From an uncultured Candidatus Saccharibacteria bacterium (lineage in GTDB: Bacteria; Patescibacteriota; Minisyncoccia; Phycocordibacterales; PALSA-1337): DNA of 64,000 bases. Under the pieces are notes generated by a model. It was not told where the DNA came from and did no database searches. It saw only the letters and a program-made list of their open reading frames with translations. Each line of letters opens with the position of its first letter. Position 1 is the first letter of the stretch. Made by a program: the position numbers and the translations under genes. The stretch lies in assembly GCA_964406895.1 (NCBI GenBank), contig CAYOTK010000005.1, forward strand, positions 7,484 through 71,483, in the 5' to 3' direction. Shown piece after piece: positions 4,904 through 62,961 of the stretch.

Positions 4904-4904
4904 A

Positions 4905-6806: not shown

Positions 6807-6810
6807 TGTT

Positions 6811-7911: not shown

Positions 7912-7912
7912 T

Positions 7913-8266: not shown

Positions 8267-8331
8267 TTTGTAATTACCTATATTTTACCTTTTATTTTGC
8301 TTTTGTTTTTGGCAAATCTGTGTATAACTTA

Positions 8332-8340
8332 TGATATAAT
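8332..8340 (+). promoter_or_regulatory. Possible extended -10 promoter element (TGaTATAAT) upstream of the GtrA-family gene
   Basis: TGATATAAT lies 13 nt upstream of the ATG at 8354. A TTGGCA upstream sits 20 nt away, so it is not counted as a -35. Confidence 0.25.
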
Positions 8341-8353
8341 TGTAGTTACAAAA

Positions 8354-8788
8354 ATGAGCAAAATCAAAGTTTTTTTGATGCATTTCGAAAATAAATACAG
8401 TGCTTTGTATAAGGTTTTTCGCTATGTAGTTGCTGGTGGTACAGCAGCTATTGTTAATATTGGTTATTTATTCCTTTTTACTGACGTTTTTGGTGTTTGG
8501 TACATTATTTCCTCGGTGTTTGCCTATGTTATAGCTTTTTTGGTTAGTTTTACATTGCAAAAATACTGGACATTCAGGGATTATTCGACAGATCGCATGG
8601 CTAAACAGGGTACTATTTATTTTATTATTGGTTTTATCAATCTCGCCCTGAATACATTACTCATATATTTGTTTACAGATATTATTGGTCTGTATTATAT
8701 TGTTTCTCAGATAATATCTGGATTACTCATTGCTTGTATTAGTTTCTTTGTTTATAAGAATATAATTTTTTCTAAAACTCCAAAATGA
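8354..8788 (+). CDS. GtrA-family polysaccharide biosynthesis membrane protein
   Basis: FRYVVAGGTAAIVNIGYLFLFTDVFGVWYIISSVFAYVIAFLVSFTLQKYWTF is the GtrA family signature. The protein has four TM helices. Confidence 0.65.
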   Translation: MSKIKVFLMHFENKYSALYKVFRYVVAGGTAAIVNIGYLFLFTDVFGVWYIISSVFAYVIAFLVSFTLQKYWTFRDYSTDRMAKQGTIYFIIGFINLALNTLLIYLFTDIIGLYYIVSQIISGLLIACISFFVYKNIIFSKTPK

Positions 8789-9822
8789 AATTATTGATCT
8801 TAACTCAAAAGGTAAATAGAGATGATCCTATCCTTGGGTTTTTCTGTAGATGGATAACTGAATTTTCGAAACATTTTGAGAGTATAAAAGTTATTGCGCT
8901 AGAGGTTGAGAGTAATACTCCGAGCACCTTGCCAAATAACGTCAATGTATTTTCGCTAGGTAAAGACAAGAAGATTCACACCGGCCTCGGAAAAATCAAT
9001 TATATTCTGAGATTTTACAAATATATTTGGAGTTTGAGAGATGAGTATGATGCGGTTTTTGTGCATATGAATCAGGAATATATTTTGCTCGGCTATATTC
9101 TCTGGAAGATTTTAAAAAAGAAAATCTATATGTGGAGAAACCACTATTCCGGAAATTATCTAACAAGATTATCCGTTATGTTTTGTAACAAAGTTTTTTG
9201 TACCTCGAAATATTCATATACTGCTCAATTCAAAAAAACTGTACTTATGCCAGTTGGTATCGATACTGATTTTTTTGTGGCAAATCCGAATATCCGAAGG
9301 AAAGAGAAATCTATACTGTCATTAGGGAGAATTTCAAGTTCAAAAAATATTGATTTATTTGTTGATGCGTTGTTGGAACTATACAAAGAAGGAATCGATT
9401 TTTATTCATGCATATATGGTGATGCTTTACCGAAGGAATATAAATACAAGATAAGTTTAATTGAGAAAGTTTCCACTTCAGGTTGTAAGAATATTGAATT
9501 CCACGACGGTATTCCGAATTACAAAACACCCGAAATTTATTCAGCTTTCGATATTTTTATTAATTTGAGTCCGAGTGGAATGTATGATAAAACCATGTTT
9601 GAGGCTGCTGCTTGTGGTTGTCAGATCGTTGCTCTCAATCAAGACCTTATATTAGAGTTCGGTCCGGAGTATGTCGTGGAAAAACCAGAATTTCAAACAG
9701 TGGTAAACAAGTTAAAAATATTTTTGTCGGAAGGACGACCCCAAAAAAATCTGAGAGAAATTACGATTCAGAATCAAAGTTTAAGTCTCTTGGCAAAAAG
9801 ATTGAAAGAAGAAATGAAATAA
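8785..9822 (+). CDS. Glycosyltransferase family 1 (GT4-like)
   Basis: It has the GT-B C-terminal domain pattern (…FINLSPSGMYDKTMFEAAACGCQIVA…). Its start overlaps the previous gene (operon). Confidence 0.55.
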   Translation: MKLLILTQKVNRDDPILGFFCRWITEFSKHFESIKVIALEVESNTPSTLPNNVNVFSLGKDKKIHTGLGKINYILRFYKYIWSLRDEYDAVFVHMNQEYILLGYILWKILKKKIYMWRNHYSGNYLTRLSVMFCNKVFCTSKYSYTAQFKKTVLMPVGIDTDFFVANPNIRRKEKSILSLGRISSSKNIDLFVDALLELYKEGIDFYSCIYGDALPKEYKYKISLIEKVSTSGCKNIEFHDGIPNYKTPEIYSAFDIFINLSPSGMYDKTMFEAAACGCQIVALNQDLILEFGPEYVVEKPEFQTVVNKLKIFLSEGRPQKNLREITIQNQSLSLLAKRLKEEMK

Positions 9823-9823
9823 C

Positions 9824-10867
9824 ATGAAAGTATTGTATTTGTTTAGTAATTACAGAAAAGATCATGTAGATAAGTTTCAAAAGGGACTAATAAGTGACAA
9901 TGCTTTTTTTGGTTTATTCAGACTAAAAAATTTCAATATTGAAACATCTTATTTTGAAATAGAGGATTTTTTACCAAAACGTTTGTGCTCTTTTTTAAGA
10001 AAATATGTCAGTGTTTACGTTATCAACTTATTTGCCTTTGCAAAAATAATTCGTACGGATTTTGTTATTCATGTTAATTCTTTTGTTACGCAAATGGTTT
10101 TTGTATTCCTGCCTTTTGTTAGTCCTAAATGGGTAATATATGATTATAGTTTAACCGGACTTTTGAAAAACAGTCGAAGTTATAAGCAGAAAATTTTGAA
10201 ATGGATAGTTTCGAAAAGTTCTGGAATAATAACTCTCTGTGAAGAAGAAAAAAGAAGACTTGAAAATATTTTTCCTCATTTGATAGGGAAGATTAAGTTT
10301 ATTCGTTACGGTGTAGATACCAAATTTTTTGAACCCCTAAAAGTGGAAGAAGAAGATTATGTCCTTTCGATAGGGCATGATATGGGGCGAGATTATCAGA
10401 CGTTATTTGAAGCAATGAAGGGTCTGAATACAAAATTGATAATAACAGATCAAAAAAGAGCAAAGAAAATGTCTGTAATTCCTGCTTTTGTTCAGGTGAA
10501 GAATTTTTCTGAACAAGAACTTAGAACGGCTTATGCAAGGGCCAAAGTTATAGTTATTCCACTCAACACATCTGGAGGTTTCAATGATGCTATGGGTTGT
10601 TCTACGCTCGTGGAGGCTTTCTCTATGGGCAAGCCTGTTATAATTACGAGAACTTTTACGACTGAATCTTATGTTGAAAATGGTGTAAATGCTTTGCTTG
10701 TAGGACAAGGAAATGTTTCTGAATTAAGAAGCAAGCTTGTATATTTATTGAATAATGACGAGATCAGGCGTAAATTAGGTACAGAGGCAAGGAGGTATGC
10801 GATAGAAAAATGTGAATCAAATCTGATAGCAAGAGATATGGCGCAGTTCTTCAAAAAAATGATATAG
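9824..10867 (+). CDS. Glycosyltransferase family 1 (GT4-like)
   Basis: …STLVEAFSMGKPVIITR…ENGVNALLV is a GT1/GT4 C-terminal motif. Confidence 0.55.
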   Translation: MKVLYLFSNYRKDHVDKFQKGLISDNAFFGLFRLKNFNIETSYFEIEDFLPKRLCSFLRKYVSVYVINLFAFAKIIRTDFVIHVNSFVTQMVFVFLPFVSPKWVIYDYSLTGLLKNSRSYKQKILKWIVSKSSGIITLCEEEKRRLENIFPHLIGKIKFIRYGVDTKFFEPLKVEEEDYVLSIGHDMGRDYQTLFEAMKGLNTKLIITDQKRAKKMSVIPAFVQVKNFSEQELRTAYARAKVIVIPLNTSGGFNDAMGCSTLVEAFSMGKPVIITRTFTTESYVENGVNALLVGQGNVSELRSKLVYLLNNDEIRRKLGTEARRYAIEKCESNLIARDMAQFFKKMI

Positions 10868-10878
10868 TTGAAACTATC

Positions 10879-11520
10879 ATGATTCAGTCATTGTTAAGAA
10901 TTGAAGAAACAAAAGCCTTGTCTCGACTTGAATTAAACGGGAAGATATTGGATTTGGGTGGTGAGAAAAATGCCTATTATCATAGAATAATACAGGGTAA
11001 ACATAATTTTTTTGTAGTAAATTTGGACATGAAGACTAAACCAGATCTTTTCTATGACCTAGAGAAAAATTTGCCTTTTAAGGAGGGTGAATATGAACAT
11101 GTTATTATCATGAATGTCTTGGAGCATGTTTATAATTTCAAGAAATTAATCGATGAATCATATAGAATTGTAGAAATAGGGGGGACAATTGTTGTTGTGG
11201 TCCCTTTCTTATTTCCATTTCACGCTTCACCTCGAGATTTTTTTCGCTATACTGAAACTTCTTTAAAACAAATATTAATAGATTCTGGATTCAAGGATAT
11301 AAATGTGAAGGCTCTTGGGTCGGGTATTTTCTCTATTTCTTTATTGTGTTTTGATAGATTGATGCCTTATCCGTTGCGTTTTATTAATTATTATGTGACT
11401 AGACACATCGTTTATTTTTTTGATTTTATTTTCGATAAAGCCGCTTATTTCATGCGGAAGAAATACAAAAAAACTGACTACGCTCTGGGTTATTTTGTTA
11501 CTGCAAAAAAAGTTTTATGA
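10879..11520 (+). CDS. Class I SAM-dependent methyltransferase
   Basis: ILDLGGEKNAYY is motif I and VIIMNVLEHV is the post-I motif. The fold is type 11/12-like. Confidence 0.5.
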   Translation: MIQSLLRIEETKALSRLELNGKILDLGGEKNAYYHRIIQGKHNFFVVNLDMKTKPDLFYDLEKNLPFKEGEYEHVIIMNVLEHVYNFKKLIDESYRIVEIGGTIVVVVPFLFPFHASPRDFFRYTETSLKQILIDSGFKDINVKALGSGIFSISLLCFDRLMPYPLRFINYYVTRHIVYFFDFIFDKAAYFMRKKYKKTDYALGYFVTAKKVL

Positions 11521-12362
11521 ATATCAAAAATATAGTAAAAAAAATTACACCCGCACCTATATGGAATTTTTTGCGTCACTACAAAGCTATAATTTTTGAT
11601 CGACTATCAAATTTTGGTCATAGTGTTTGCAGTATCAAATATTGTGGATTTGATTTGTTTTATTTGCCAGGAGATCTCTTGGTAAAAAAAATCAGAAACA
11701 ATAAAATTTTCGAACAAAAAATGTGCGACAAAATTGAAAAGGAACTTCACAGTTCAAATTCGAATACATTTATGGATATCGGATCAAATATTGGCCTCAT
11801 AAGTCTCTATGTTAGTTCCAAAATAAAAAATATTAGTATATATGCTTTTGAGCCAGGACCAAATCAAAGTAAAATGTTTGAGAAAACTATTTTAAAAAAT
11901 AATTTAAATTCAATTTCTCTCTATAAAATTGCACTAGGAAATGAAGACAAATCAGTAACATTTGTGAGTCATTATTCTCCTGATTCTTCGGGTGACGGTT
12001 TGGTGGATACAGGGAGGGCTGGTCAACCTATTCCTGTATCTGTTCCCATGATGAGATTGGATACTTGGTGGAAAAAAAATAATGAACCTCAGATTGACGT
12101 AATGAAAATTGATACCGAAGGTTCAGAGCTTCTTATCTTGCAAGGCGCTATGGTCATGATACAAAGTACAAAACCTATTATTTATATAGAAATTGAACCG
12201 AAAAATATCAAAGTTTATCCATATACCAGAGATGATTTGTTTCTTTGGTTTCAGTACAATAATTATTCTTTATACACTTTAGACAATGAATTATGTACCC
12301 ACACAAACTTTGCATCCTTTATTGGGAAATATGATACATATATTGCACGTCCAAAACTATGA
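11517..12362 (+). CDS. FkbM-family methyltransferase
   Basis: FMDIGSNIGLISLYV … IYAFEPGP … VMKIDTEGSELLIL is the FkbM-family pattern. Confidence 0.55.
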   Translation: MNIKNIVKKITPAPIWNFLRHYKAIIFDRLSNFGHSVCSIKYCGFDLFYLPGDLLVKKIRNNKIFEQKMCDKIEKELHSSNSNTFMDIGSNIGLISLYVSSKIKNISIYAFEPGPNQSKMFEKTILKNNLNSISLYKIALGNEDKSVTFVSHYSPDSSGDGLVDTGRAGQPIPVSVPMMRLDTWWKKNNEPQIDVMKIDTEGSELLILQGAMVMIQSTKPIIYIEIEPKNIKVYPYTRDDLFLWFQYNNYSLYTLDNELCTHTNFASFIGKYDTYIARPKL

Positions 12363-13459
12363 AATTAATACAAATAACAGCCAAGAAATTTCCTGCTAAT
12401 ACCGCGGATCATATTTTTTTAAAGAAATCTGTTTACGCTTTTTCTAAACTACTGAATAAAGATTATCAATTTATATGTTTGAATTGTTATGACAATTCAT
12501 TTGAAAACATAAATTATATAAATATTGGGTCAACTTGGACTAGGGGAATTACATTTTATTTGTTCCTTTGGGTTCCGTATTTTATATTCAAAAACAAAAT
12601 ATATAATCAAGAGATTTGGTTTTATAGTAATGATTTATATATTTTATCTATTTTGATTTTTTGGAAGAAATTGTTTTCCATGAAATTTTGTATTGCTTCA
12701 GAGTGGCATATGCTTATCTCTAATTACTTAGATGGATATGTATCTAGGAATAGTGATAAGCTGATCACAACTACAAAACACTTGAAAAATATATTAATAA
12801 AAAGTTTTAATATAGAAAGTTCTAAAGTGCAAGAAATATATGGTGGTGTAGAAATCGATCCTTTTCAAAACCTCCGTAATACAAATATTTCAGGTATGCA
12901 AGATAAGACGTTGATCAAATTGGGTTACATCGGATATTACAAGACAATGGGTATGGAGAAAGGTCTGTCTACAATCATTGAGAGTCTTAAATATCTAGAC
13001 AAAAAAATTCATGCATATCTCGTGGGGGGTCGTAAAGATGAGATAGAGGGATATAAAATTTTGGCAGGAAAGATTGGGGTTCTTGATCGTGTCGAATTTA
13101 TTCCCACCGTAGAACAAAGCGAAATTCCAAAATATTTTGAAAATATGGATATCGTAATAATTCCATATCCAAACAAGAAACATTTTAGAGATTATGGATT
13201 ACCAATGAAGATTTATGAATATATGGCCAGTAAAAAAATAATTGTTTATTCGAAATTGCCTGTCATTGATGAATTACTTCACGACTGCGCAGTATCTTTT
13301 GAACCCGATAATTCACAAGATTTGGCAAATAAGATTGCTCAAATAATAAATAATAGGGAAAATTTTGATGTGCTTGTTGATAGGGCTTACGCCAAGGTTT
13401 TGAATTATTCGTGGGATAAAAGATCCGAGAATATCGTTAGATTTTTAGGAAAGATTTGA
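12359..13459 (+). CDS. Glycosyltransferase family 1 (GT4-like)
   Basis: It has GT-B C-terminal features (…IPYPNKKHFRDYGLPMKIYEYMASKKIIVYSKLP…). Confidence 0.5.
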   Translation: MKLIQITAKKFPANTADHIFLKKSVYAFSKLLNKDYQFICLNCYDNSFENINYINIGSTWTRGITFYLFLWVPYFIFKNKIYNQEIWFYSNDLYILSILIFWKKLFSMKFCIASEWHMLISNYLDGYVSRNSDKLITTTKHLKNILIKSFNIESSKVQEIYGGVEIDPFQNLRNTNISGMQDKTLIKLGYIGYYKTMGMEKGLSTIIESLKYLDKKIHAYLVGGRKDEIEGYKILAGKIGVLDRVEFIPTVEQSEIPKYFENMDIVIIPYPNKKHFRDYGLPMKIYEYMASKKIIVYSKLPVIDELLHDCAVSFEPDNSQDLANKIAQIINNRENFDVLVDRAYAKVLNYSWDKRSENIVRFLGKI

Positions 13460-15194
13460 TGAATATTTTTGCAATATCTATATAAGATTTTTTGCTATAC
13501 TCACTAAATATTTTTGATTTGCGGAATATTTGTGCCGAGATTTTAATTCTATTTGCATTTAAGCCGCATATGTTATACCAGCGCATATATAATATTTTTT
13601 TAAGACTTTTTGAAGAATATATTTTGCATGAATCATTTTTTTTCATTATGATTTCTAGCCAGTTCTTATGTTCAACGAGAAATTGCTCTATGGCGATTTC
13701 AGAAGGACAAATTATTGAATTGTGAACAAACATGTCGGATTCTTGTGGTTGTAGACCCAATTTTTCCAATTGTCGCTTTCTTATTTCGTTTACGGTGCTT
13801 TTTTTGTTTGCTTTGTTTTGAATCATTAGATTCGATTCATGTAATCTGTAATACAACAAAACACGTCTTATATTCGTTATTTTTCCCAACTCTGATATTC
13901 TCGTCCAGAGGTCGTAATCTTCTTCGATATATTGGCTTCTATAAAAAAGGTTGTTTTCGATCAAGAATGATTTTCTTATTATTACTGTTGGATGTGCTAT
14001 GCTCGTATTGAATAACAATTGCGCCTTTATATCTTCGGGATTACTAAGCAATTTGCTTTTATATGATTTGCTGTGACCAATGGTTTTGTAAAATGTTCCT
14101 GATATTGATATGTCCTTGTTTTTTTCCATGAATTCATATTGTTTCTCGAATCTTTGTGGTAATGAAATATCATCAGAATCCATTCTTGCTATATAATCGC
14201 CCTGGGATAATAATATGCCTTGATTTAGAGATTCTGCTATGCCTTTTTTTGTTTCATTTAGGATATATTTGATTCTTGGATCATCGTATGAGTTGATAAT
14301 ATTTTTACATTCGTCTGAGTCACTTTTGTCTTCGATTATGATGAATTCAAAATTTTTGAAGGTCTGATCGAGTATGCTGTCGATAGCTTGTTTTAAGTAT
14401 TTGCCATTTTTATACACAGGCATAATAACACTGATTTTCGGATCATTTATTATCTTTTTCCATGATTTGGGTATTAGATCTTTTTCGTCACGCTGATCGA
14501 CGAACCAATTCATGGGGGAAATAACAATTTTGTTTGGGTTTGGATTGAGCCATGCCGCCCACCAACTATAAGTACTGTTTGCAATGATATTATGTTTACA
14601 TTGCGACATTAGATAGTGCTCTTCAGTATCAGAAAATCCTTTACCAGAGACATACTCGAAATTGTCATGAATGTGGGGTTGAATATTTTCTTTTACCCAA
14701 TTTACGTCATCAGTGAATATAAATATTTTTATTTGTTTACTTTCGAGTTTTCTTTTTATTGTGTTTATTGATTCTATATAATAACTAGGCGACAAATTAT
14801 CATAAATTATTTTATGTTTTGTGGTTGTATAATCTGTTCTTCGTACATGAATTGAAACCGAAAGGGAAGACTTGATATCTTTATAAATGGGATATTTGTC
14901 CCAGTCTGTTTTTTTTGGAGACAATTCTCTGCGTATTTTATCTGATATTTGATCGAAATATTTCTCGCTTTGCCAGTACCCTTCCGAAATATTTTTTTCA
15001 TTGGAAATATGGTCTTTGACTATTTTAGCTTCGATATTGTATTGATCCAATAAGAATTTTCGATCGCTATTTTCTTTATTGTAATAACTTATGTCAAGAA
15101 ATAATGACTCCTTTCTTTCAAGACTAAAATATCGACCATATGCATATTGGAACATTTGATTTCCAAGACCGCCTTGAATTTTGATTTTACTCAT
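13437..15194 (-). CDS. Bifunctional glycosyltransferase: N-terminal GT11 (alpha-1,2-fucosyltransferase-like) fused to a C-terminal GT2 domain
   Basis: The N-terminus MSKIKIQGGLGNQMFQYAYGRYFS matches the GT11/FutC family start motif (GGLGNQMFQYA). The C-terminal half has ISVIMPVYKNGKYLKQAIDSILDQTF…FEFIIIEDKSDSD, a GT2 DxD-type domain. Confidence 0.6.
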   Translation of the reverse strand: MSKIKIQGGLGNQMFQYAYGRYFSLERKESLFLDISYYNKENSDRKFLLDQYNIEAKIVKDHISNEKNISEGYWQSEKYFDQISDKIRRELSPKKTDWDKYPIYKDIKSSLSVSIHVRRTDYTTTKHKIIYDNLSPSYYIESINTIKRKLESKQIKIFIFTDDVNWVKENIQPHIHDNFEYVSGKGFSDTEEHYLMSQCKHNIIANSTYSWWAAWLNPNPNKIVISPMNWFVDQRDEKDLIPKSWKKIINDPKISVIMPVYKNGKYLKQAIDSILDQTFKNFEFIIIEDKSDSDECKNIINSYDDPRIKYILNETKKGIAESLNQGILLSQGDYIARMDSDDISLPQRFEKQYEFMEKNKDISISGTFYKTIGHSKSYKSKLLSNPEDIKAQLLFNTSIAHPTVIIRKSFLIENNLFYRSQYIEEDYDLWTRISELGKITNIRRVLLYYRLHESNLMIQNKANKKSTVNEIRKRQLEKLGLQPQESDMFVHNSIICPSEIAIEQFLVEHKNWLEIIMKKNDSCKIYSSKSLKKILYMRWYNICGLNANRIKISAQIFRKSKIFSEYSKKSYIDIAKIFIKSFLKI

Positions 15195-15701
15195 TTATCT
15201 TTTTCTTATGAATTTTGCGGGAGTTCCGGCATATATACTATATTCAGGAACATCTGATGTTACGACACTATTTGCGCCGATTACTGAACCATTACCAATC
15301 TTTACTCCGTCTGTAATAGTACAATTTGCACCAATCCATACATCATTTCCTATATGTATTGGTCCTTTAGAAATATCTGTAGCAAATCTCATGGGTTTTT
15401 CTTTTTGATTTAGATTGTGGTTACCTGAAGCAATCATGCAGTGAGGGGCAATCATAACATTATCTCCAATATGTACTCCGCTGCCACCATATATGACCGT
15501 GAATGGGTTTATTTGAGTGTTTTTTCCAATAATAACTGGATTTCTATACGTTCTGATTATTACATATTCTTGGATTTCCGCTTTTTCTTTTATTGTTATT
15601 AGTTTCTTAACTTCCAAAATGGCTGTTTTATCAACAGTATAGGGCTTTTGGGGGAACCAAAAAAATAAGTATTTTTTAATTATGTTTTTAATTCTGTTCA
15701 T
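15195..15701 (-). CDS. Hexapeptide-repeat (LbH) sugar O-acetyltransferase
   Basis: It has repeated [LIV]-G-x-x-x-x-I hexapeptides (IGDNVMIAPHCMIASGNH…IGNDVWIGANCTITDGVKIGNGSVIGANSVV). Confidence 0.6.
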   Translation of the reverse strand: MNRIKNIIKKYLFFWFPQKPYTVDKTAILEVKKLITIKEKAEIQEYVIIRTYRNPVIIGKNTQINPFTVIYGGSGVHIGDNVMIAPHCMIASGNHNLNQKEKPMRFATDISKGPIHIGNDVWIGANCTITDGVKIGNGSVIGANSVVTSDVPEYSIYAGTPAKFIRKR

Positions 15702-16494
15702 TGATCAAATCAAGTAATCCTTGTTCCAAACTTATTTTTGGATGCCAGCCTTTCGGTTTGCCTTTTATTGTTACGAAATTTCTATCTACACCTTTTTGGT
15801 TACCGGGAACGACTTTTGCTTTTGTGTGTTTTGCAATTATATGTGCCAACTCTAACATTGATGTCCATTCGAAGTTTGTAAGATCGTATATTTTGCCTGT
15901 CATATTATTCTCGAAAAGATGATGTAATGCTTCGGAGACATCTCTTACATGTGTGAATTGTCTTCTTTCATTTCCAGAAGTCATCATTTTGATTTTACCG
16001 GTTGTTTTGGCTTGGTGAATAAAATCTGCCACCACATGGCTCTTCTCGTCTATTTTTTCTGATGCGCCATATATATTCCAAAGTCTTACACATATACCTT
16101 GTAGCTCTAGCGTCCATAATTCTCCAGTTCTTTTGAGAGCACCATATATAGTATCTGTTTCATCGGCTAATTGACTTGATACGAATACAAATGGTTTTTT
16201 GTGTTTTTGTATTTGTGTCATTACGTTTCTGAGTAAGTCAATGTTCCAATTGAGTTGCAGTAGTTGAGTCTCTTTTTTATAAAGATACTTTGCTCCACCG
16301 ACTTCCCAAGCGAGGAAATAGACTCTGTCATACTTGTTAAGTTTTAGATCCGCGAAGCGGGCATCTTCTTTCTTGCCTCTTTTGATATCGAAATGGGTAA
16401 CCTCTTCACCTTTTTCTTTCAAAAATTTACAGAGTGGTTTGCCCAAGAATCCTTCCGAACCGATTACAAGATTTTTTATTTTTTTATTATTCAT
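15688..16494 (-). CDS. NAD-dependent epimerase/dehydratase family (short SDR-type nucleotide-sugar enzyme)
   Basis: The N-terminus has the Rossmann motif NLVIGSEGFLGKPL. It is ~268 aa and lies in the glycan locus. Confidence 0.5.
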   Translation of the reverse strand: MNNKKIKNLVIGSEGFLGKPLCKFLKEKGEEVTHFDIKRGKKEDARFADLKLNKYDRVYFLAWEVGGAKYLYKKETQLLQLNWNIDLLRNVMTQIQKHKKPFVFVSSQLADETDTIYGALKRTGELWTLELQGICVRLWNIYGASEKIDEKSHVVADFIHQAKTTGKIKMMTSGNERRQFTHVRDVSEALHHLFENNMTGKIYDLTNFEWTSMLELAHIIAKHTKAKVVPGNQKGVDRNFVTIKGKPKGWHPKISLEQGLLDLINEQN

Positions 16495-17575
16495 TTTGTT
16501 TGCTTAGGTTGAGAGCTTTAATAATTGGTAAACAGAAATTCTCGGGAAGAAATTTCTTGTATTTTTCACTTTTCATGAATCGTTCTGCAGCCTGTAGGTA
16601 TTCATCATATCTCTTTTCATCTACACTTATCAAGTAATCAGCCAGTTCTTTGTCTGAGTTGAATTTCCGTCTGTCAACAAAGGTGTCAGTGTCTATATAG
16701 TCTTCGATATTACATGCTCCCCAATATATAGGAACAGCTCTTGCATGAAATGAGGTGAATATTTTATCGCAAACATATCCGTGTGCGTCAGATGTGTTTT
16801 CGTAGCATAAATTGAATTTATATCGTGATAGAATATCAAATTTATTATCTGCAAATCCTCTGTATGTTTTGTATTTCTTTACTAGGAAAGGGAATAGCTT
16901 TTGCATTCTAGTGGCAGGTTTATTCCACCTTGCTCCATAAAAATCAAAATCATTCGGGTAATATTTATCAAAATAGTCATAAGCTTTTCTTCTTGCAGTA
17001 TAAAGTTCGTATTTATAGTTTGAATATTTGTTAATTGACGCGCTTACAAGTAATTTCTTTTCATTAAATGGGATCGGTTTTTCTAACATCTTGTTACCTT
17101 CCATGGGAACGTAGAATTGTGTGAATCTTTTATCACCAAGAAGACTATCATCCCATGTCACCATTTTATCGAATTTTGACCACGTCTCTTCCGTATAATT
17201 ATCTTTTAATACCGTCTTTGGTTCCCACACTATGAGCAATAGTTTGTCTCTAAGTCCTGCTTTTATTGCTTCAGAATAGAGATCTCTTGTAACATTGATT
17301 GGATTGATTTTCATGCCAAATAATTTGCGTAAGGAGTTTTCTATTCTTTTTGAAATAGAAAGTGGTTTGTATAGACTGTCTGCGTTGTGGAATATTATTC
17401 CTGCGCAATTTTCCAAAGAATGATTATCTGCTGTAGAAAATTCATACCCTAAATCCTCGATGTTTTTCTTGAGATAATGCCAACCAGCAGAAAGATTATT
17501 TCGATCCATTACATTGAATATCTGATTGTTCATGAAAGCTCGACTTGAAAACTGAATTAGAACTTTCTTTTTCAT
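16487..17575 (-). CDS. GT10-family glycosyltransferase (alpha-1,3/4-fucosyltransferase-like)
   Basis: YKFNLCYENTSDAHGYVCDKIF matches the GT10 C-terminal motif (F-x-L-x-FENS…YVTEK). Confidence 0.5.
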   Translation of the reverse strand: MKKKVLIQFSSRAFMNNQIFNVMDRNNLSAGWHYLKKNIEDLGYEFSTADNHSLENCAGIIFHNADSLYKPLSISKRIENSLRKLFGMKINPINVTRDLYSEAIKAGLRDKLLLIVWEPKTVLKDNYTEETWSKFDKMVTWDDSLLGDKRFTQFYVPMEGNKMLEKPIPFNEKKLLVSASINKYSNYKYELYTARRKAYDYFDKYYPNDFDFYGARWNKPATRMQKLFPFLVKKYKTYRGFADNKFDILSRYKFNLCYENTSDAHGYVCDKIFTSFHARAVPIYWGACNIEDYIDTDTFVDRRKFNSDKELADYLISVDEKRYDEYLQAAERFMKSEKYKKFLPENFCLPIIKALNLSKQNE

Positions 17576-17579
17576 ATTG

Positions 17580-18842
17580 TTATGAAATTTGTATTGTTTG
17601 ATAATTCGGTATGATACCCATTACGCCCGTAGTATTGTCACTAAATATCCGTGTTTTTGGATTATTCTCGTCAATAATTTTGAAACTAATATTGCTGACC
17701 TTGTCTATTATATTAATTCCAGGATTATCTATGAGTATGTCCATGTCATAGTTTCCCACGTTAAATGTAAAAGCTGGAATTGAAATGCTGGTTTTATAGT
17801 GGCCTTTTTTGAAGTTTTTTAGCGTCCCAGAATAATCACTTTCATAAGTGTGAAGTATTTCATTTCCATTGCTTGAGAACATGAAACAAAGGGTCGCTTT
17901 GTTTATGTCGTTTATTACTTCAAAATCAATATCGATTTTGAAGTCTTTATATATCGGTATATCAGTAGTTGATTCATTGTGACATAATATTTGTGCTTGC
18001 TTTATGTATGCGTCTTTTTTGTTATTGTTTTCAAATTTTATCAGGGGATTTGAGTTTTTATTTTCTAGATAGAATTCAACGACCTTATCTGTTTCTCCAT
18101 ACATTACAATTTGACCTTTTTCGAGGAGAATGGTTTTTTTGCACAATTTCTGGATTGCATTCATGTTGTGACTAACGAAGATTATTGTTCTTCCTTCTTG
18201 TTTTGTTACTTCCTGCATTTTTCCTATACATTTTTTCTGGAATTCCACGTCTCCAACAGCAAGAACTTCATCAACAATCAAAATGTCTGGTTCCATATGT
18301 GCTGCCACAGAGAAAGCAAGTCTTACATACATTCCAGATGAATAATATTTTACAGGTGTATCCAAGAATTGACTTATTCCTGCAAACTCTACAATTTCAT
18401 CGAATTTTTTTATTATCTGATTTTTATGCATACCAAGAATGGCGCCGTTCAGGAAGATATTTTCTCTTCCGGTTAATTCGGGATGAAATCCCGTGCCTAC
18501 TTCGAGCAAACTTCCCACTACACCATTAAGAACAACTTCTCCTGTTGTTGGCGGAGTGATTTGAGATAGGATTTTGAGAAGAGTAGATTTGCCTGCGCCG
18601 TTTTTACCGATTACACCTATTACTTCGCCACGTTTTATTTCTAGATTAATATTTTTGAGGGCCCAATATTCTTCGGTTTTATTCATGCCTGTAATATCTC
18701 TAGTTTTGTTTATTACGAAACGAAAGGGGTTTCTCAATACAGATGAAAAAACATCTCTAAGAGCTATGTAGCCACCTTTTTGGTGGGTAATATGATATTT
18801 TTTGCCTATATTTTTTATGCTTATGATTGGGTCGTTTTGCAT
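17580..18842 (-). CDS. Polysaccharide ABC exporter ATP-binding protein (Wzt/TagH-like) with extended C-terminal domain
   Basis: Walker A is GKNGAGKSTLLKIL, the ABC signature is YSSGMYVRLAFSVAA and Walker B is ILIVDEVLAVGD. About 170 extra C-terminal residues follow the NBD. Confidence 0.7.
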   Translation of the reverse strand: MQNDPIISIKNIGKKYHITHQKGGYIALRDVFSSVLRNPFRFVINKTRDITGMNKTEEYWALKNINLEIKRGEVIGVIGKNGAGKSTLLKILSQITPPTTGEVVLNGVVGSLLEVGTGFHPELTGRENIFLNGAILGMHKNQIIKKFDEIVEFAGISQFLDTPVKYYSSGMYVRLAFSVAAHMEPDILIVDEVLAVGDVEFQKKCIGKMQEVTKQEGRTIIFVSHNMNAIQKLCKKTILLEKGQIVMYGETDKVVEFYLENKNSNPLIKFENNNKKDAYIKQAQILCHNESTTDIPIYKDFKIDIDFEVINDINKATLCFMFSSNGNEILHTYESDYSGTLKNFKKGHYKTSISIPAFTFNVGNYDMDILIDNPGINIIDKVSNISFKIIDENNPKTRIFSDNTTGVMGIIPNYQTIQIS

Positions 18843-18851: not shown

Positions 18852-19883
18852 TTACATTCTTTTTGCCTTTTTGAATATGACCTCTTTCTGAACCACAAAA
18901 TTGACAATATACAATATTGTTTCTGAAATTATTTTAGAAATATTTACAGGTATGCCCATTTTCCTACTAAGGATATATATTAATCCTGAAGACAATGCAC
19001 CAGAGATAATAACCAAGGTTATGTATTTAACGAATGTGCCTTTTTTCTCGCTATCAACGAATACTTTCTTGCTTACTAGACTGTAATTCACAAAAAGTGA
19101 AACACATCTTGAAGCATATGTTGATATTAGAATATTATTAATTAGTGGATACACTAATATGAAGACTAGAAAATCAACCAAGGCTGATAATAATGAAGAA
19201 ATTGTATATCTGAAAATGACAAAATATATTTTGAGAGAGTCCAGTAGAGGATTGAAATGAGAGGAAGAATTATTGTCCTTATATATTGTTTCGATCGAAA
19301 TCTCTTTTATTTTGATATTATTCTTAGAACATTTGAGTAACATTTCTGTTTCGAATTCATAGCCATTATATGGTATGTCTAGAAAATGTTTTAGATGCGA
19401 TACTTGGAAACCTCTCAATCCTGATTGTGTGTCTGATATTTTGACTTTATATATATACCTGAATATGTTTCTGGTTAAGATATTTCCGATTTTGCTCCTG
19501 AATGGAACTTCTTTACCGAAAGTTCTAGAACCTAGAAAAAGAGAATTCTCATCTTCTTTCATATATTCAATGATTTTTTTAACGTCGTTTTCATGATGTT
19601 GACCATCAGCATCGGCGGTTATAATTTTGTTCACGTCAGGGAAATTGCTGAGGGCATATTTGAATCCTGTTTTTAGGGCTGCGCCCTTGCCTTTATTTAC
19701 TTCATGATTGACTACAAACACATTCTGAAATCTTCTTACGTGGTCAAACATTTTGTCGAAGTCATGACCACTACCATCATTGATTATAAGAACTGCTTCA
19801 TTAGAGATTTGTCTCAAACGAGACATGAATGTGATCATGTCTTCGCTTGGTTTGTATGCAGGAATAAGTATTAAAGATTTCAT
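18852..19883 (-). CDS. GT2 glycosyltransferase fused to a C-terminal GtrA-like membrane domain (polyprenol-phosphate sugar synthase / Ppm1-DPM1-like)
   Basis: The N-terminal GT2 fold has LILIPAYKPSEDMI…ADADGQHH (DxD). The C-terminus has ~4 TM helices. Confidence 0.55.
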   Translation of the reverse strand: MKSLILIPAYKPSEDMITFMSRLRQISNEAVLIINDGSGHDFDKMFDHVRRFQNVFVVNHEVNKGKGAALKTGFKYALSNFPDVNKIITADADGQHHENDVKKIIEYMKEDENSLFLGSRTFGKEVPFRSKIGNILTRNIFRYIYKVKISDTQSGLRGFQVSHLKHFLDIPYNGYEFETEMLLKCSKNNIKIKEISIETIYKDNNSSSHFNPLLDSLKIYFVIFRYTISSLLSALVDFLVFILVYPLINNILISTYASRCVSLFVNYSLVSKKVFVDSEKKGTFVKYITLVIISGALSSGLIYILSRKMGIPVNISKIISETILYIVNFVVQKEVIFKKAKRM

Positions 19884-21745
19884 TTGTTTTTCTCAATAAC
19901 TTTCACAAGAATAAATCCATCGATATCAAATATTTTTACATATTTTCCAGCTTTTATCTTGTCTTTAATATCGTTTATAATTATATCTTTACTGTAATTT
20001 GTGGCCAGAATGTATCCGATATTGTTAGTCTTCGAAACAACATCAAAATATTTTTCAAAATTATCTTTTGTTGTTGCGTGTTCTGGATTGAGTTCATATA
20101 GCCTGTCTTTGGTGTCTGGCAAGAAATGGAGTAGGGCAAAATTGCTATATATTTTTTTATCGTCGTTATTGTCTGCAAAATATGAACTTATATTAGTGCT
20201 TAATTCTTTGTTGGATATAGTCTTTTTTTCTATATTGTATTTATTGAGTATTTTGCTATTCAAAAAAGGTCCCGAAATAAAAATCAAAAGAGCTATTAGG
20301 AGAAATAGTGGCCACAATTTCATTCTATCGATAAATGTCGCAGTTTTTTCAGAATTGATTATTGCGTGTATTGCAAATGATAAAGATATGCCTAGTAGCA
20401 CTACTCCGAAAGTTAAATTCCTGGAATCATAGCTTAAGAAAAGACTCCAGTATAAAGTGATAATAATAGCTGGAAGGGCAAACAAAAGCCCTGACAACCT
20501 TTTTTTGAATAACAAATAGATCGTTGATATGAAATACAAGATGATGATAAGGTAAGATTTTTTTATTGTATATATGAGAGCGTTGAATATAATAACTGCA
20601 TTAGAATTACCGCCGGCATGAATCAGAGCGTTAATGGTGGGGAGAACAGATGTTTCTTCGCCAAGATATATGGTGAATTCTTTGTATATATAGTATGGTC
20701 CAACTAATATTAGAATAAGAGAAATATATATGAATGTATATTTTAGGATTTTAGTTTTTATTGATTCGGATCTATGCAGATATACTAATATTGCTAATGG
20801 ATATATAAGAGCAATAAATATTCCTGTTTGTTTGGTGAGCAGTGCTGCAATGACTGATAGTGCTCCAGCTAATATTGTGATTTTTTCTTGGTTTCCTGAA
20901 AGTTTTTCTGTAAATAGTCGATACAAGAAGATAAGAGGTACAAGAGAAAAGAAACTTACTGCCGTATCGGCATAACCTTCAGTTGCCATTATTTCATAGC
21001 CGTTCATCAGTCTCAGTAATATGAATATTGTAAAAACTGAGAGAATAAATGCTGAATTTCTCGTTTTTATTCCCATTGAAAAAAGCATTGTGGCCATGAA
21101 TAATGGAAAGAGTGGCATAATCGCTTTTGCCAAGAATTCGCCGCTTTGCCCTAGCAGAACATAGAAGACCGACCAATTCATCGGTAATAATTGAGGATAT
21201 TCCCACGTGTCTGTTGGTAAAGTGTTTGACGCCCATTGTGTGGCCCAACGATTCCAAGAAAATATTGCGTCCGATAGATTGAATAATGTTCCTACATTCG
21301 AAATTAATAAATACAATAAATACGTGATTGTAAGAATAGATAGTAATACTACTAACGATTGATACGTCCTGCTTTTTTCTTCAAATAAATAATTTTTTAT
21401 TTGGTTAAATTTGAATTTCAAACGCATCTGTAGATAATCAACTACAGAAAACATATTCATGTTGAATATTTTATATATCGTATTTTTTTCAATATAAAAC
21501 AGTAACAATAATTCAATTGAAATAATTATTAATAGAACGTTTTGCGTATATGTGTGAAATAGGGTAAGAGGAAAAATTATTAGACTGTTGAATATCATAC
21601 TGAAGATGAAAGAAAAAATTAATCTCTCATCCAATTTGTGCCCAATTATTTTTATTAAGAAATGTGATATGAGCCAACCAGGAAGCAATGTGACCTGAAC
21701 AAGACCAAGAATGGCAAATATAGAAAATAATAAATTGTGTTGCAT
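19880..21745 (-). CDS. Polytopic GT-C-type glycosyltransferase (PMT/ArnT-like, GT39/GT83-like)
   Basis: It is a 621-aa integral membrane protein with more than 10 TM helices and an extracytoplasmic C-terminal domain. It is start-overlapped with the Ppm-like gene. Assignment is by architecture, not by motif. Confidence 0.4.
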   Translation of the reverse strand: MQHNLLFSIFAILGLVQVTLLPGWLISHFLIKIIGHKLDERLIFSFIFSMIFNSLIIFPLTLFHTYTQNVLLIIISIELLLLFYIEKNTIYKIFNMNMFSVVDYLQMRLKFKFNQIKNYLFEEKSRTYQSLVVLLSILTITYLLYLLISNVGTLFNLSDAIFSWNRWATQWASNTLPTDTWEYPQLLPMNWSVFYVLLGQSGEFLAKAIMPLFPLFMATMLFSMGIKTRNSAFILSVFTIFILLRLMNGYEIMATEGYADTAVSFFSLVPLIFLYRLFTEKLSGNQEKITILAGALSVIAALLTKQTGIFIALIYPLAILVYLHRSESIKTKILKYTFIYISLILILVGPYYIYKEFTIYLGEETSVLPTINALIHAGGNSNAVIIFNALIYTIKKSYLIIILYFISTIYLLFKKRLSGLLFALPAIIITLYWSLFLSYDSRNLTFGVVLLGISLSFAIHAIINSEKTATFIDRMKLWPLFLLIALLIFISGPFLNSKILNKYNIEKKTISNKELSTNISSYFADNNDDKKIYSNFALLHFLPDTKDRLYELNPEHATTKDNFEKYFDVVSKTNNIGYILATNYSKDIIINDIKDKIKAGKYVKIFDIDGFILVKVIEKNK

Positions 21746-22574: not shown

Positions 22575-22587
22575 CATAAAATCTATA

Positions 22588-42589: not shown

Positions 42590-42629
42590 TTAGCATGATG
42601 AATTATCAATTTAATTGTAATGAAAGCAT

Positions 42630-52590: not shown

Positions 52591-52612
52591 AGGGGATATT
52601 ATAGCAGATTTT

Positions 52613-62957: not shown

Positions 62958-62961
62958 AATT

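What the first reader, a model, noticed from the sequence alone, without database searches (positions are those of the whole stretch)
13437..17575. Two distinct fucosyltransferase-family enzymes (GT11 fused to GT2, and GT10) in one glycan locus
The 585-aa protein begins with the GT11/FutC-like signature MSKIKIQGGLGNQMFQYAYGRYF and carries a GT2 domain in its C-terminal half. The 362-aa protein carries the GT10 C-terminal motif (KFNLCYENTSDAHGYVCDKIF). Alpha-1,2 plus alpha-1,3/4 fucosyltransferases together are the enzymes that build Lewis-type fucosylated epitopes, for example in Helicobacter pylori. Finding both, plus an SDR-type nucleotide-sugar enzyme and an acetyltransferase, in a minimal genome suggests a fucosylated and methylated surface glycan, possibly a host-mimicry or attachment determinant. 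No gmd/fcl pair is evident in the window.
Basis: partly seen in the sequence, partly recalled or inferred. Interest (0 to 1): 0.6.

Follow-up and report, generated by a model that had tools for sequence, protein, structure and literature searches.

The report
Fucosyltransferase-type genes in a glycan operon
A small-genome Patescibacteria bacterium has an operon for an exported surface polysaccharide that really does include enzymes of the two fucose-adding families GT10 and GT11, but it looks like an ordinary ABC-transporter polysaccharide pathway rather than Lewis-antigen mimicry, and the genes that make the fucose donor are absent from the ~75 kb examined.

Summary
The 585-aa protein is a GT11 domain fused to a GT2 domain, and the 362-aa protein is a GT10-family enzyme. 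An extended SDR and a hexapeptide acetyltransferase lie between them. Pfam scores, PDB sequence hits, a pLDDT-96 model whose best structural matches are all GT10 fucosyltransferases, and conserved donor-site residues all agree.

The four genes are the tail of a tightly packed nine-gene operon (23229→13437, minus strand) with Wzm/Wzt ABC-exporter genes. Three GT4 genes, several methyltransferases and a Wzy_C-type ligase lie alongside. Relatives in Paceibacterota keep the same locus. In 13 of 16 Patescibacteria loci an Fcl-like gene lies within 10 kb of the GT10 gene, usually with Gmd, in the order Gmd–Fcl–Wzm–Wzt…GT10. That supports a GDP-fucose-type donor.

In this organism no gmd, fcl or manC is found in ~75 kb, so the donor route is unresolved. 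The adjacent SDR is Fcl-related but lacks Fcl's catalytic Cys. Nothing supports Lewis-type epitopes or host mimicry.

One unexplained point: the window's GT10 subclade has Asp instead of the consensus Glu in the donor motif, and it co-occurs with this SDR.

Verdict: a new member of a known kind; modest interest.

The parts
14454..15194 (-). GT11 (alpha-1,2-fucosyltransferase family) domain, residues 1-~247 of the 585-aa fusion protein
   Evidence: PF01531 E 1.4e-28. Motifs GGLGNQMFQYA, H116xR118R119xD121 and ANSTYSWWAAWL are nearly invariant in alignment A3. It is collinear with the free-standing 265-aa GT11 of relative L001.
13437..14441 (-). GT2 (GT-A) domain plus C-terminal extension, residues ~252-585 of the same protein
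   Evidence: PF00535 E 6.9e-34. The best PDB hit is the chondroitin synthase GT2 domain, E 1.8e-22. It is collinear with the separate 339-aa GT2 gene of L001 that overlaps its GT11 gene.
15195..15701 (-). Left-handed beta-helix (hexapeptide) acetyltransferase, 168 aa
   Evidence: PF00132 E 1.2e-20. Best NCBIfam hits are WbbJ, LacA and WcaF-type O-acetyltransferases, all below their cutoffs.
15688..16494 (-). Short extended SDR (268 aa), Fcl-related nucleotide-sugar reductase or epimerase of unresolved specificity
   Evidence: PF01370 E 2.5e-20. Best NCBIfam hit is Fcl at 43 bits against a cutoff of 500. The family has 732 members at 53-70% identity across several phyla. It keeps the Ser/Tyr/Lys triad and the His, but has Gln at Fcl's Cys position and lacks a ~19-residue loop. 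Structure hits are generic NDP-sugar SDRs.
16487..17575 (-). GT10-family glycosyltransferase (362 aa), Asp variant of the YVTEK donor motif
   Evidence: PF00852 E 2.9e-13. PDB sequence hits at E<=1e-6 are all GT10 fucosyltransferases. The AF2 model has pLDDT 96. The top 10 Foldseek hits are H. pylori FucT, FUT9 and mango FucT13. E118, R195, E259 and N260 are invariant and K271 nearly so.
17580..18842 (-). Wzt-type ABC ATPase (420 aa) with a ~160-aa C-terminal extension
   Evidence: PF00005 E 6.4e-22. NCBIfam TagH/Wzt models at E 2e-60 to 4e-52, below their cutoffs. 56% identical over 399 aa, C-terminal domain included, to the L004 Wzt that carries a Pfam Wzt_C hit. The extension alone gave no Pfam hit.
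18852..19883 (-). GT2 fused to a GtrA-like membrane domain (343 aa); probable polyprenyl-phosphate-sugar synthase
   Evidence: PF00535 plus PF04138. Best NCBIfam hits are PpgS and AglJ, below their cutoffs.
19880..21745 (-). 621-aa polytopic membrane protein of unassigned family, conserved at this position in L001
   Evidence: No Pfam or PDB sequence hit even at E<=10. The orthologue in L001 scores 356 bits. A role as the transferase that uses the lipid-linked sugar is inference only.
21753..22652 (-). Wzm ABC-2 permease (the real start is probably at 22577, giving 274 aa)
   Evidence: PF01061 E 1e-18. NF050109 Wzm/RfbD E 6.4e-23, below its cutoff. The gene call on the Logan contig is 274 aa.
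22588..23229 (-). SAM methyltransferase, first gene of the operon
   Evidence: PF13489 E 5.5e-19.
23334..25568 (+). Wzy_C (O-antigen-ligase-like) membrane protein with C-terminal TPR repeats, 744 aa
   Evidence: PF04932 E 2.7e-21 plus TPR families. It holds the same position in L001 and L003.
8297..13459 (+). Convergent block: GtrA-like protein, GT4, GT4, methyltransferase, FkbM methyltransferase, GT4
   Evidence: Pfam. The GT4 and FkbM genes are in the same relative position in L001.
4142..8266 (-). Possibly associated mannose-phosphate block: PMI-type cupin, two GH130 mannoside phosphorylases, phosphomannomutase-type HAD
   Evidence: PF01050, PF04041 (E 3.6e-101 and 3.7e-44) and PF03332. A link to the glycan locus is inferred from adjacency only.

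Best explanation
The four genes are the distal part of a nine-gene operon for an ABC-transporter-dependent surface polysaccharide in a Paceibacterota-like bacterium. Order on the minus strand: methyltransferase, Wzm, membrane protein, GT2-GtrA, Wzt, GT10, SDR, acetyltransferase, GT11-GT2. The proposed pathway is as follows. The glycan is built on a lipid carrier on the cytoplasmic face by three GT4 enzymes, the GT2 domain, and the two inverting GT-B enzymes GT10 and GT11. GT10 and GT11 add a GDP-activated 6-deoxyhexose, most likely L-fucose. The glycan is O-methylated and O-acetylated, exported by Wzm/Wzt, and transferred to its final acceptor by the neighbouring Wzy_C-TPR ligase. The GT11-GT2 protein is a fusion of two genes that are adjacent and separate in relatives, so the two domains probably catalyse consecutive steps. 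Shown here: family membership, conserved donor-site residues, operon structure, synteny with relatives, and Gmd/Fcl in relatives' loci. Inferred: the donor sugar, the linkages, the order of steps, the role of methylation, the acceptor, and that gmd/fcl lie elsewhere in this genome.
For: GT10 has invariant E118, R195, E259 and N260, with K271 in 44 of 48 sequences. By alignment to H. pylori FucT, N260, Y267, D270 and K271 correspond to N240, Y246, E249 and K250. In the GT10 enzyme AtFUT11, the Glu and Thr of 'ENT' contact the fucose hydroxyls, and the Arg and the Lys of 'TEK' hold the diphosphate (PMC12929593). The window protein has YENT...GYVCDK. The GT11 motifs are conserved. Genes are 0-9 nt apart or overlap. 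Synteny with L001: MurB, Wzy_C, Fcl-like, Gmd, Wzm, 619-aa membrane protein, GT2-GtrA, Wzt, GT10, SDR, then GT11, GT2, GT4, FkbM. Verified by NCBIfam: Gmd in L001 (521 bits, cutoff 415), Gmd (576) and Fcl (508, cutoff 500) in L003, and GMP/PMI, Fcl (510) and Gmd (591) in L085. Of 16 Patescibacteria GT10 loci, 13 have a strong Fcl-like ORF within 10 kb, 7 have a complete Gmd and 2 more a Gmd cut by the edge, 15 have Wzt, and 7 have GT11. The fusion is found in independent assemblies and in homologues at 94, 63 and 43-44% identity.
Against: No gmd, fcl, manC or fkp-like gene was found in the window or in the ~11 kb fetched beyond its ends. No initiating phosphoglycosyltransferase is in the window. 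The adjacent SDR is not an Fcl. The GT10 protein has Asp where 36 of 48 family members have Glu. No enzyme of this clade has been characterised, and family membership does not fix donor or linkage. The N-terminal (acceptor) domain of GT10 has no detectable sequence similarity to solved GT10 enzymes. The Wzt C-terminal domain and the 621-aa protein have no family assignment.
Confidence: 0.6

Rival explanations
1. The window's GT10 subclade no longer transfers L-fucose. Instead it uses the product of the co-inherited short SDR, which would be another GDP-6-deoxyhexose such as 6-deoxy-D-talose, D-rhamnose or a 4-epimer of fucose. GT11 may still use GDP-fucose.
For: The SDR abuts GT10 in the window, in L001 and in a Chloroflexia locus, L027 (gaps or overlaps of 8-22 nt). 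27 of the 120 best GT10 homologues have Asp instead of Glu in the TEK motif. All 9 classifiable homologues that share a contig length with a top-120 SDR homologue are Asp-type, and none of the Glu-type do. The L027 GT10 has Gln-Arg at that position. The SDR lacks Fcl's Cys and a ~19-residue loop. It also occurs alongside a full ManC-Fcl-Gmd set in L085, so it does something Fcl does not. The R. tropici OPS operon combines gmd, fcl, pmi and tld (GDP-6-deoxy-D-talose) with wzm/wzt (PMC12595478).
Against: The substituted Glu anchors the guanosine, not the sugar, in AtFUT11, and Asp is a conservative change. The residues that contact fucose (E259, T261) are kept. The Asp-type proteins form essentially one clade, so the association rests on about two independent events. 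The SDR's reaction is unknown, and fold matches are non-specific.
Confidence: 0.2
2. The GT10 and GT11 enzymes together build Lewis-type (Le-x/Le-y/H-like) epitopes, as in Helicobacter pylori, which serve as host mimicry or an attachment determinant.
For: The same two CAZy families are involved as FutA/B and FutC. The best PDB match of GT10 is H. pylori FucT. GT10 and GT11 co-occur in 7 of 16 related loci.
Against: No gene for a LacNAc-type backbone was identified. The locus is a Wzm/Wzt polysaccharide operon with three GT4 genes and four methyltransferases. The acceptor domain of GT10 shows no sequence similarity to H. pylori FucT. The protein ends at residue 362, without the heptad-repeat tail of the H. 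pylori enzymes (my recollection of those enzymes). Relatives come from groundwater, lake and soil MAGs. No paper links Patescibacteria with fucosyltransferases.
Confidence: 0.05
3. The organism cannot make the donor at all. Either the fucosyltransferase-family genes are on their way to being lost, or they depend on a nucleotide sugar or fucose obtained from a host cell.
For: No gmd/fcl/manC was found in ~75 kb, although the closest relative has Gmd and an Fcl-like gene between Wzy_C and Wzm, exactly where the window has only a methyltransferase. Three other Patescibacteria loci (L006, L007, L024) also lack them within 10 kb. A metagenome scan with the relative's Gmd returned no contig from the samples that hold this organism.
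Against: All ORFs are intact, with catalytic residues conserved. Near-identical copies occur in several independent samples. Only about 75 kb of a genome that is probably several hundred kb or more was seen. The metagenome scan kept only the best 80 of more than 600 matches, so it has little power. Uptake of nucleotide sugars by bacteria is not an established route (my knowledge).
Confidence: 0.1

Closest known systems
Helicobacter pylori alpha-1,3/4-fucosyltransferase FucT/FutA (CAZy GT10; PDB 2NZW/2NZX/2NZY)
   Same: It is the best sequence and structural match (E 8e-13 with the single sequence, 1e-18 with the profile; Foldseek E 4e-10). It shares the GT-B fold, the ENT...Y-V-x-[ED]-K donor motif, and Arg and Lys for the diphosphate.
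   Different: Only residues ~240-325 align by sequence. The acceptor domain is unrelated in sequence. The motif has Asp for Glu and one extra residue. There is no C-terminal heptad-repeat or amphipathic tail (the last point rests on my recollection of the H. pylori enzyme). The genomic context is a Wzm/Wzt operon, not a Lewis-antigen LPS pathway.
Bacterial alpha-1,2-fucosyltransferases of CAZy GT11 (such as H. pylori FutC and E. coli O-antigen WbsJ/WbgL; named from memory)
   Same: The Pfam GT11 match is well above its cutoff. The N-terminal GGLGNQMFQYA, HxRRxD and STxSWW motifs are conserved.
   Different: Here GT11 is fused to a C-terminal GT2 domain. That architecture recurs in at least 25 of the 120 best metagenomic homologues, but I know of no characterised example. 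Donor and acceptor are untested.
Rhizobium tropici CIAT 899 O-polysaccharide operon (PMC12595478)
   Same: It is an ABC-transporter-dependent pathway (wzm, and wzt with a carbohydrate-binding module). The polymer is rich in 6-deoxyhexoses from the GDP-mannose branch (gmd, fcl, pmi, tld) and is O-acetylated. Rhizobial O-antigens are also often methylated. The Rhizobiales locus L085 carries a 53%-identical homologue of the window's SDR in just such an operon.
   Different: In R. tropici the characterised fucosyltransferase, WrtF, has a GT-A fold, not GT10 or GT11. That organism is a Gram-negative with LPS. The window has no gmd/fcl/pmi-GMP genes.
Wzm/Wzt pathways with chain-terminating methyl caps read by the Wzt C-terminal domain (E. 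coli O8/O9a), and ABC-transporter-dependent S-layer glycan pathways of Gram-positives that use a Wzy_C-type transferase (both from memory)
   Same: Wzm, a Wzt with a C-terminal extension, several methyltransferases, and an adjacent Wzy_C-family protein.
   Different: The extension gives no Wzt_C Pfam hit. No terminator kinase or methyltransferase of the WbdD type was recognised. The acceptor of the ligase is unknown.

Membership tests
CAZy GT10 (alpha-1,3/4-fucosyltransferases) | Match to the GT10 catalytic-domain profile above the curated threshold | tested here: met
   PF00852: 50.3 bits against a cutoff of 23.9, E 2.9e-13. A profile built from 48 homologues hits only GT10 fucosyltransferases in the PDB, E 1e-18 to 2e-13.
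CAZy GT10 (alpha-1,3/4-fucosyltransferases) | Donor motif FxLxFEN[ST]xxxxY[VI]TEK (motif recalled from memory) | tested here: met
   The window has FNLCYENTSDAHGYVCDK. Differences are Tyr for Phe, one extra residue, and Asp for Glu. E259 and N260 are invariant; position 271 is Lys in 44 of 48 and Arg in 4; position 270 is Glu in 36 and Asp in 12.
CAZy GT10 (alpha-1,3/4-fucosyltransferases) | GT-B fold with GT10 enzymes as nearest structural neighbours | tested here: met
CAZy GT10 (alpha-1,3/4-fucosyltransferases) | Catalytic-base Glu in the N-terminal domain (FUT9 Glu137, AtFUT11 Glu158), plus Arg and Lys on the diphosphate | tested here: inconclusive
   E118 and R195 are invariant in 48 sequences. 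E118 directly follows strand 112-116 in a W-E-P context. Model coordinates could not be superposed on a solved structure, so the equivalence is inferred. The roles of these residues are from PMC12717137 and PMC12929593.
CAZy GT10 (alpha-1,3/4-fucosyltransferases) | Transfers L-fucose from GDP-beta-L-fucose in alpha-1,3/4 linkage | not testable with these tools
   This needs an enzyme assay. Indirect support: Gmd and Fcl lie in the loci of relatives.
CAZy GT11 (alpha-1,2-fucosyltransferases) | Match to the GT11 profile above the curated threshold | tested here: met
   PF01531: 100.5 bits against a cutoff of 23.9, E 1.4e-28.
CAZy GT11 (alpha-1,2-fucosyltransferases) | Conserved motifs: N-terminal GGLGNQ, HxRRxD, and [ST]xSWW (recalled from memory) | tested here: met
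   G8 G9 G11 N12 Q13; H116 R118 R119 D121; N206 S207 W211 W212. All are at least 90% conserved among 14 GT11-bearing sequences.
CAZy GT11 (alpha-1,2-fucosyltransferases) | Fold, and alpha-1,2-fucosyl transfer activity | not tested
Activity needs an assay.
GDP-L-fucose de novo pathway (Gmd + Fcl) | GDP-mannose 4,6-dehydratase present | tested here: not met
   There is no ORF with E<1e-5 to verified Gmd queries in the window, and none in the flanks fetched. It is present in relatives L001, L003 and L085. The rest of the genome could not be searched.
GDP-L-fucose de novo pathway (Gmd + Fcl) | GDP-L-fucose synthase (3,5-epimerase/4-reductase with Cys and His acid/base pair) | tested here: not met
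   The 268-aa SDR scores 43 bits against a cutoff of 500 on NF047922. It has Gln at the Cys position (SSQ versus SSC), lacks the following loop, and keeps the His. The residue roles in E. coli Fcl (Cys109, His179) are from memory.
ABC-transporter-dependent (Wzm/Wzt) polysaccharide pathway | ABC-2 permease and ATPase encoded in the glycosyltransferase operon | tested here: met
   PF01061 and PF00005. The best NCBIfam hits are the Wzm/RfbD and TagH/Wzt models, below their equivalog cutoffs.
ABC-transporter-dependent (Wzm/Wzt) polysaccharide pathway | Wzt C-terminal carbohydrate-binding domain and a chain-terminating modification | tested here: inconclusive
   A ~160-aa extension aligns with that of a Wzt carrying a Pfam Wzt_C hit, but on its own it gives no Pfam hit at E<=10. 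Methyltransferases are present, but their role is unknown.
ABC-transporter-dependent (Wzm/Wzt) polysaccharide pathway | Initiating polyprenyl-phosphate glycosyl-1-phosphate transferase | tested here: not met
   No such Pfam family was found on any large ORF of the window. It may be encoded elsewhere.
H. pylori-type Lewis-antigen system | Glycosyltransferases for a LacNAc backbone that the fucosyltransferases decorate | tested here: inconclusive
   Only generic GT4 and GT2 enzymes are present and none could be assigned. Nothing supports a LacNAc acceptor.

The most novel reading that the evidence does not exclude
The window's GT10 subclade has Asp, or in Chloroflexia Gln, in place of the guanosine-anchoring Glu. 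It is always partnered with a short Fcl-derived SDR that has lost the epimerisation Cys. On the novel reading, this subclade is a GT10 lineage that has switched donor: the pair makes and transfers a rare GDP-6-deoxyhexose rather than L-fucose. That would be the first non-fucose specificity in GT10 and would define the function of a widespread SDR family of 732 members.
Probability: 0.2. Interest if true: 0.55.

Novelty: new member of a known kind. Interest (0 to 1): 0.3.

Why it matters
Almost nothing is known experimentally about the cell-surface glycans of Patescibacteria, which live attached to other microbes. This locus, with its conserved Gmd–Fcl–Wzm–Wzt…GT10…GT11 counterpart across Paceibacterota, predicts a deoxyhexose-rich, methylated and acetylated surface polymer. 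That prediction can be tested with fucose lectins or glycomics and is a candidate factor in cell–cell contact. The practical gain here is smaller. The annotation is confirmed, the Lewis-mimicry idea is set aside, the donor route is flagged as missing locally, and one specific GT10–SDR pairing is worth a biochemical test.

Tried and rejected
1. Searching for the source genome. The GTDB-representative scan found no close genome; the best match was 59% identical. Exact-protein look-ups gave only contigs of 35.5 kb or less, lying within or just beyond the window. Two look-ups found nothing. A 79-kb NCBI contig exists but could not be fetched.

2. A metagenome scan with the relative's Gmd. No hit came from the samples that carry this organism, but only 80 of more than 600 matches were kept, so this is uninformative.

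3. Assigning the SDR by structure. Foldseek hits are spread evenly over epimerases, Fcl, reductases and decarboxylases. The best PDB sequence hit is a promiscuous GDP-sugar 4-epimerase, but only locally, at E 8.5e-9. A plasmid tblastn gave only Fcl at 26-27% identity.

4. Assigning the 621-aa membrane protein and the Wzt C-terminal extension. No Pfam or PDB hit was found even at E<=10.

6. Literature searches for fucosyltransferases or fucose in Patescibacteria/CPR found nothing relevant. The one CPR paper that mentions fucose concerns the host's cell wall.

7. My early note that the SDR had lost Fcl's His was wrong. The alignment shows the His is kept and only the Cys is replaced.

8. The NUDIX gene at 29510-29998 was considered as a Gmm-like enzyme. 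It has no NCBIfam match.

Full report
**Observation.** Pfam gives the following:
- The 585-aa protein has Glyco_transf_11 (E 1.4e-28, 100.5 bits against a gathering score of 23.9, residues 67-245) and Glycos_transf_2 (E 6.9e-34, residues 255-406).
- The 362-aa protein has Glyco_transf_10 (E 2.9e-13, 50.3 bits against 23.9).
- The 268-aa protein is an extended SDR (Epimerase, E 2.5e-20).
- The 168-aa protein is a hexapeptide acetyltransferase (E 1.2e-20).

Both quoted peptides are present.

**The GT10 protein.** By sequence it matches solved structures only over residues ~240-325. Every significant hit is a GT10 fucosyltransferase: H. pylori FucT at E 8e-13, mango FucT13, FUT9 and a plant core alpha-1,3-FucT. 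A profile built from 48 homologues raises this to E 1e-18 and still finds only GT10 enzymes. The AlphaFold model built on that alignment is very confident (pLDDT 96, pTM 0.91). Its ten best Foldseek matches in the PDB are all GT10 enzymes, with other GT-B enzymes following.

In the 48-sequence alignment E118, R195, Y258, E259, N260 and G266 are invariant, and K271 is Lys in 44 and Arg in 4. Alignment to H. pylori FucT puts N260, Y267, D270 and K271 opposite N240, Y246, E249 and K250. The AtFUT11 structure paper assigns roles within the same motif. The Glu and Thr of 'ENT' contact the fucose hydroxyls. The Asn, the Arg and the Lys of 'TEK' hold the pyrophosphate. The Glu of 'TEK' anchors the guanosine (PMC12929593). 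FUT9 uses Glu137 as base and Arg202 and Lys256 on the diphosphate (PMC12717137). The window protein keeps all of these except that the guanosine-anchoring Glu is Asp. That E118 and R195 are the base and the diphosphate Arg is an inference from invariance and position. I could not superpose coordinates.

**The GT11-GT2 protein.** The GT11 motifs as I recall them are GGLGNQMFQYA at the N-terminus, HxRRxD, and [ST]xSWW. All are present and at least 90% conserved among 14 GT11-bearing sequences. The C-terminal half is a standard GT-A/GT2 domain; its best PDB hit is the chondroitin synthase GT2 domain at E 1.8e-22. In the closest large-contig relative, L001, a 265-aa GT11 gene and a 339-aa GT2 gene are separate and overlap by 16 nt. 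The window protein is collinear with the two placed end to end. Six of 16 related Patescibacteria loci have GT11 immediately followed by a separate GT2. The fused form occurs in independent assemblies, in homologues at 94, 63 and 43-44% identity, and in at least 25 of the 120 best hits. The fusion is therefore real and recurrent. Fusion of neighbouring genes suggests consecutive steps, but this is inference.

**Context.** The four genes are the tail of a tightly packed minus-strand operon from 23229 to 13437. Its order is methyltransferase, Wzm, a 621-aa membrane protein, GT2-GtrA, Wzt, GT10, SDR, acetyltransferase, GT11-GT2, with gaps of 0-9 nt or overlaps. A plus-strand block converges on it: GtrA-like protein, two GT4 genes, two methyltransferases (one FkbM-type) and a third GT4. 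A Wzy_C (O-antigen-ligase-like) protein with TPR repeats lies upstream and is transcribed divergently.

This is the layout of an ABC-transporter-dependent polysaccharide pathway. The Wzt has a ~160-aa C-terminal extension. That extension aligns with the extension of a relative's Wzt that carries a Pfam Wzt_C hit, but on its own it gives no Pfam hit. The 621-aa membrane protein has no family assignment at all. No initiating phosphoglycosyltransferase is in the window.

**Organism.** The best homologues of all three proteins are from Paceibacterota/Parcubacteria MAGs. No GTDB representative is closer than 59% for GT10. The rest of the window fits a CPR bacterium: type IV pilus genes, two giant surface proteins, and a cluster of T4SS-pilin-like genes.

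**The donor question.** No Gmd, Fcl or ManC is encoded in the window. This rests on Pfam for all large ORFs and on phmmer with verified Gmd/Fcl queries against all ORFs of 70 aa or more. None is in the ~6.8 kb upstream or ~4.3 kb downstream that could be fetched either.

The orthologous locus of relatives does carry them:
- L001 has MurB, Wzy_C, an Fcl-like gene (288 bits, below the 500 cutoff), Gmd (521 bits, cutoff 415), then Wzm and the same gene order as the window.
- L003 has Gmd (576 bits), a Gmm-like NUDIX and Fcl (508 bits) upstream of Wzm-Wzt…GT10…two GT11 genes.
- Among 16 Patescibacteria loci fetched around GT10 homologues, 13 have a strong Fcl-like ORF within 10 kb. Seven have a complete Gmd and two more have one cut by the edge of the fetched stretch. 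Fifteen have Wzt and seven have GT11. These counts use phmmer scores against verified queries, not curated thresholds.

This linkage is the best available evidence that GT10 and GT11 enzymes of this group use a sugar from the GDP-mannose/Gmd branch, most simply GDP-L-fucose. In the window the syntenic position holds only a methyltransferase, so the pair has been lost or moved. A metagenome scan with the relative's Gmd gave no contig from the samples that contain this organism, but it kept only 80 of more than 600 matches and proves nothing. Next to the locus are a PMI-type cupin, two GH130 mannoside phosphorylases and a phosphomannomutase-type HAD. These would supply mannose phosphates, which is suggestive and no more.

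**The SDR.** It belongs to a tight, short (263-290 aa) family of 732 members at 53-70% identity, found in several phyla. Its best curated match is Fcl, but at 43 bits against a cutoff of 500. I aligned it with verified Fcl proteins. It keeps the Ser/Tyr/Lys triad and the His of 'SHV'. It has Gln where Fcl has Cys (SSQ versus SSC) and lacks about 19 residues after that point. From memory, Cys109 and His179 are the acid/base pair for the epimerisations in E. coli Fcl, so this enzyme is unlikely to be a 3,5-epimerase/reductase. It is more likely a plain 4-reductase or a 4-epimerase. Structural matches are non-specific. The best PDB sequence hit is a promiscuous archaeal GDP-sugar 4-epimerase, and only locally.

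In a Rhizobiales locus (L085) a 53%-identical homologue sits in an operon ordered GMP/PMI, Fcl (510 bits), Gmd (591 bits), Wzm, Wzt, methyltransferase, SDR. So the family acts in addition to Fcl. That operon resembles the R. tropici OPS operon, which combines gmd, fcl, pmi and tld (GDP-6-deoxy-D-talose) with wzm/wzt and builds an acetylated Glc-6dTal-Fuc polymer (PMC12595478).

**An unexplained co-variation.** Of the 120 best GT10 homologues, 91 have the consensus [ST]EK, 27 have D[KR], and 2 could not be classified. Eleven GT10 homologues share a contig length with a top-120 homologue of the SDR, and all nine of these that could be classified are the Asp type. None of the Glu type do. Among the 80 loci from GTDB genomes, only L005 (the same contig as L001) is Asp-type. 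Only L005 and L027 have the SDR directly beside GT10, and the L027 enzyme (Chloroflexia) has Gln-Arg at that position. This could mean that this GT10 lineage uses the SDR's product. However, the residue concerned binds the nucleotide rather than the sugar, the change is conservative, and the association rests on roughly two independent events. I rate this reading at about 0.2.

**Interpretation.** The Lewis-epitope or host-mimicry idea has no support. No LacNAc-type backbone enzyme can be identified. The acceptor domain of the GT10 protein is unrelated in sequence to the H. pylori enzyme. The pathway type is a Wzm/Wzt polysaccharide operon. The relatives come from groundwater, lakes and soil. 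Linkage specificities are family-level guesses. GT2-fold enzymes can themselves be fucosyltransferases (PMC12595478), so the count of 'fucosyltransferases' in the locus is open in both directions.

**Verdict.** This is a correctly observed, correctly classified pair of fucosyltransferase-family genes in a conserved Paceibacterota surface-polysaccharide locus. It is a new member of a known kind. The missing donor pathway and the GT10–SDR pairing are the two points worth following. Interest 0.3.

Noticed in passing
window 4142-8266 (-): Directly beside the glycan locus sits a block of a 117-aa PMI-type cupin, two GH130 beta-mannoside phosphorylases (366 aa and 633 aa) and a eukaryotic-type phosphomannomutase HAD. 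No mannose-1-phosphate guanylyltransferase was found in ~75 kb. The block could feed mannose phosphates into the pathway, or it could degrade or build beta-mannosides.
   Followed up: partly
window 34415-48875 (+): Two adjacent giant ORFs. One is 2724 aa with FG-GAP repeats and a Peptidase_S74 (endosialidase chaperone) domain. The other is 2081 aa with a beta-helix, cadherin/Ig-like and peptidoglycan-binding domains. They are probably surface or host-contact proteins.
   Followed up: no
window 62496-63912 (+), continuing beyond the window (L088 8347-8989): A tandem array of five small TrbC/VirB2-like 'T4SS pilin' genes follows a solute-binding protein gene.
   Followed up: no
L022, L049, L060 (DPANN archaea); L038-L083 (Chlamydiota and others): GT10 homologues of this family also occur in Woesearchaeota and Micrarchaeota MAGs. 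In L022 they sit with GT11 and GT2, and in L049 and L060 with Gmd and an Fcl-like gene. Many Chlamydiota genomes have homologues in which only residues ~109-355 match. This patchy, cross-domain distribution suggests horizontal transfer.
   Followed up: no
L013, L014, L018, L020 (ORF just upstream of GT10): In several Glu-type loci a second Fcl paralogue lies next to GT10. It scores about 200-220 bits to the Fcl queries and keeps both Cys and His. In L013, L014 and L018 this is in addition to a canonical Fcl elsewhere in the fetched stretch (with Gmd in L013 and a truncated Gmd in L014 and L018). So GT10 genes in this group are often paired with their own SDR.
   Followed up: partly
window 51361-52659 (-) and tRNA-Leu 52613-52699 (-): The longest ORF for the MFS transporter overlaps the tRNA-Leu gene by 47 nt. 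The real start is probably further downstream; the JGI gene call is 409 aa.
   Followed up: no
window 19880-21745 (-): A 621-aa polytopic membrane protein lies between Wzm and the GT2-GtrA gene and is conserved at that position in L001. It has no Pfam or PDB sequence match even at E<=10. It is a candidate new family of lipid-linked-sugar transferase.
   Followed up: partly
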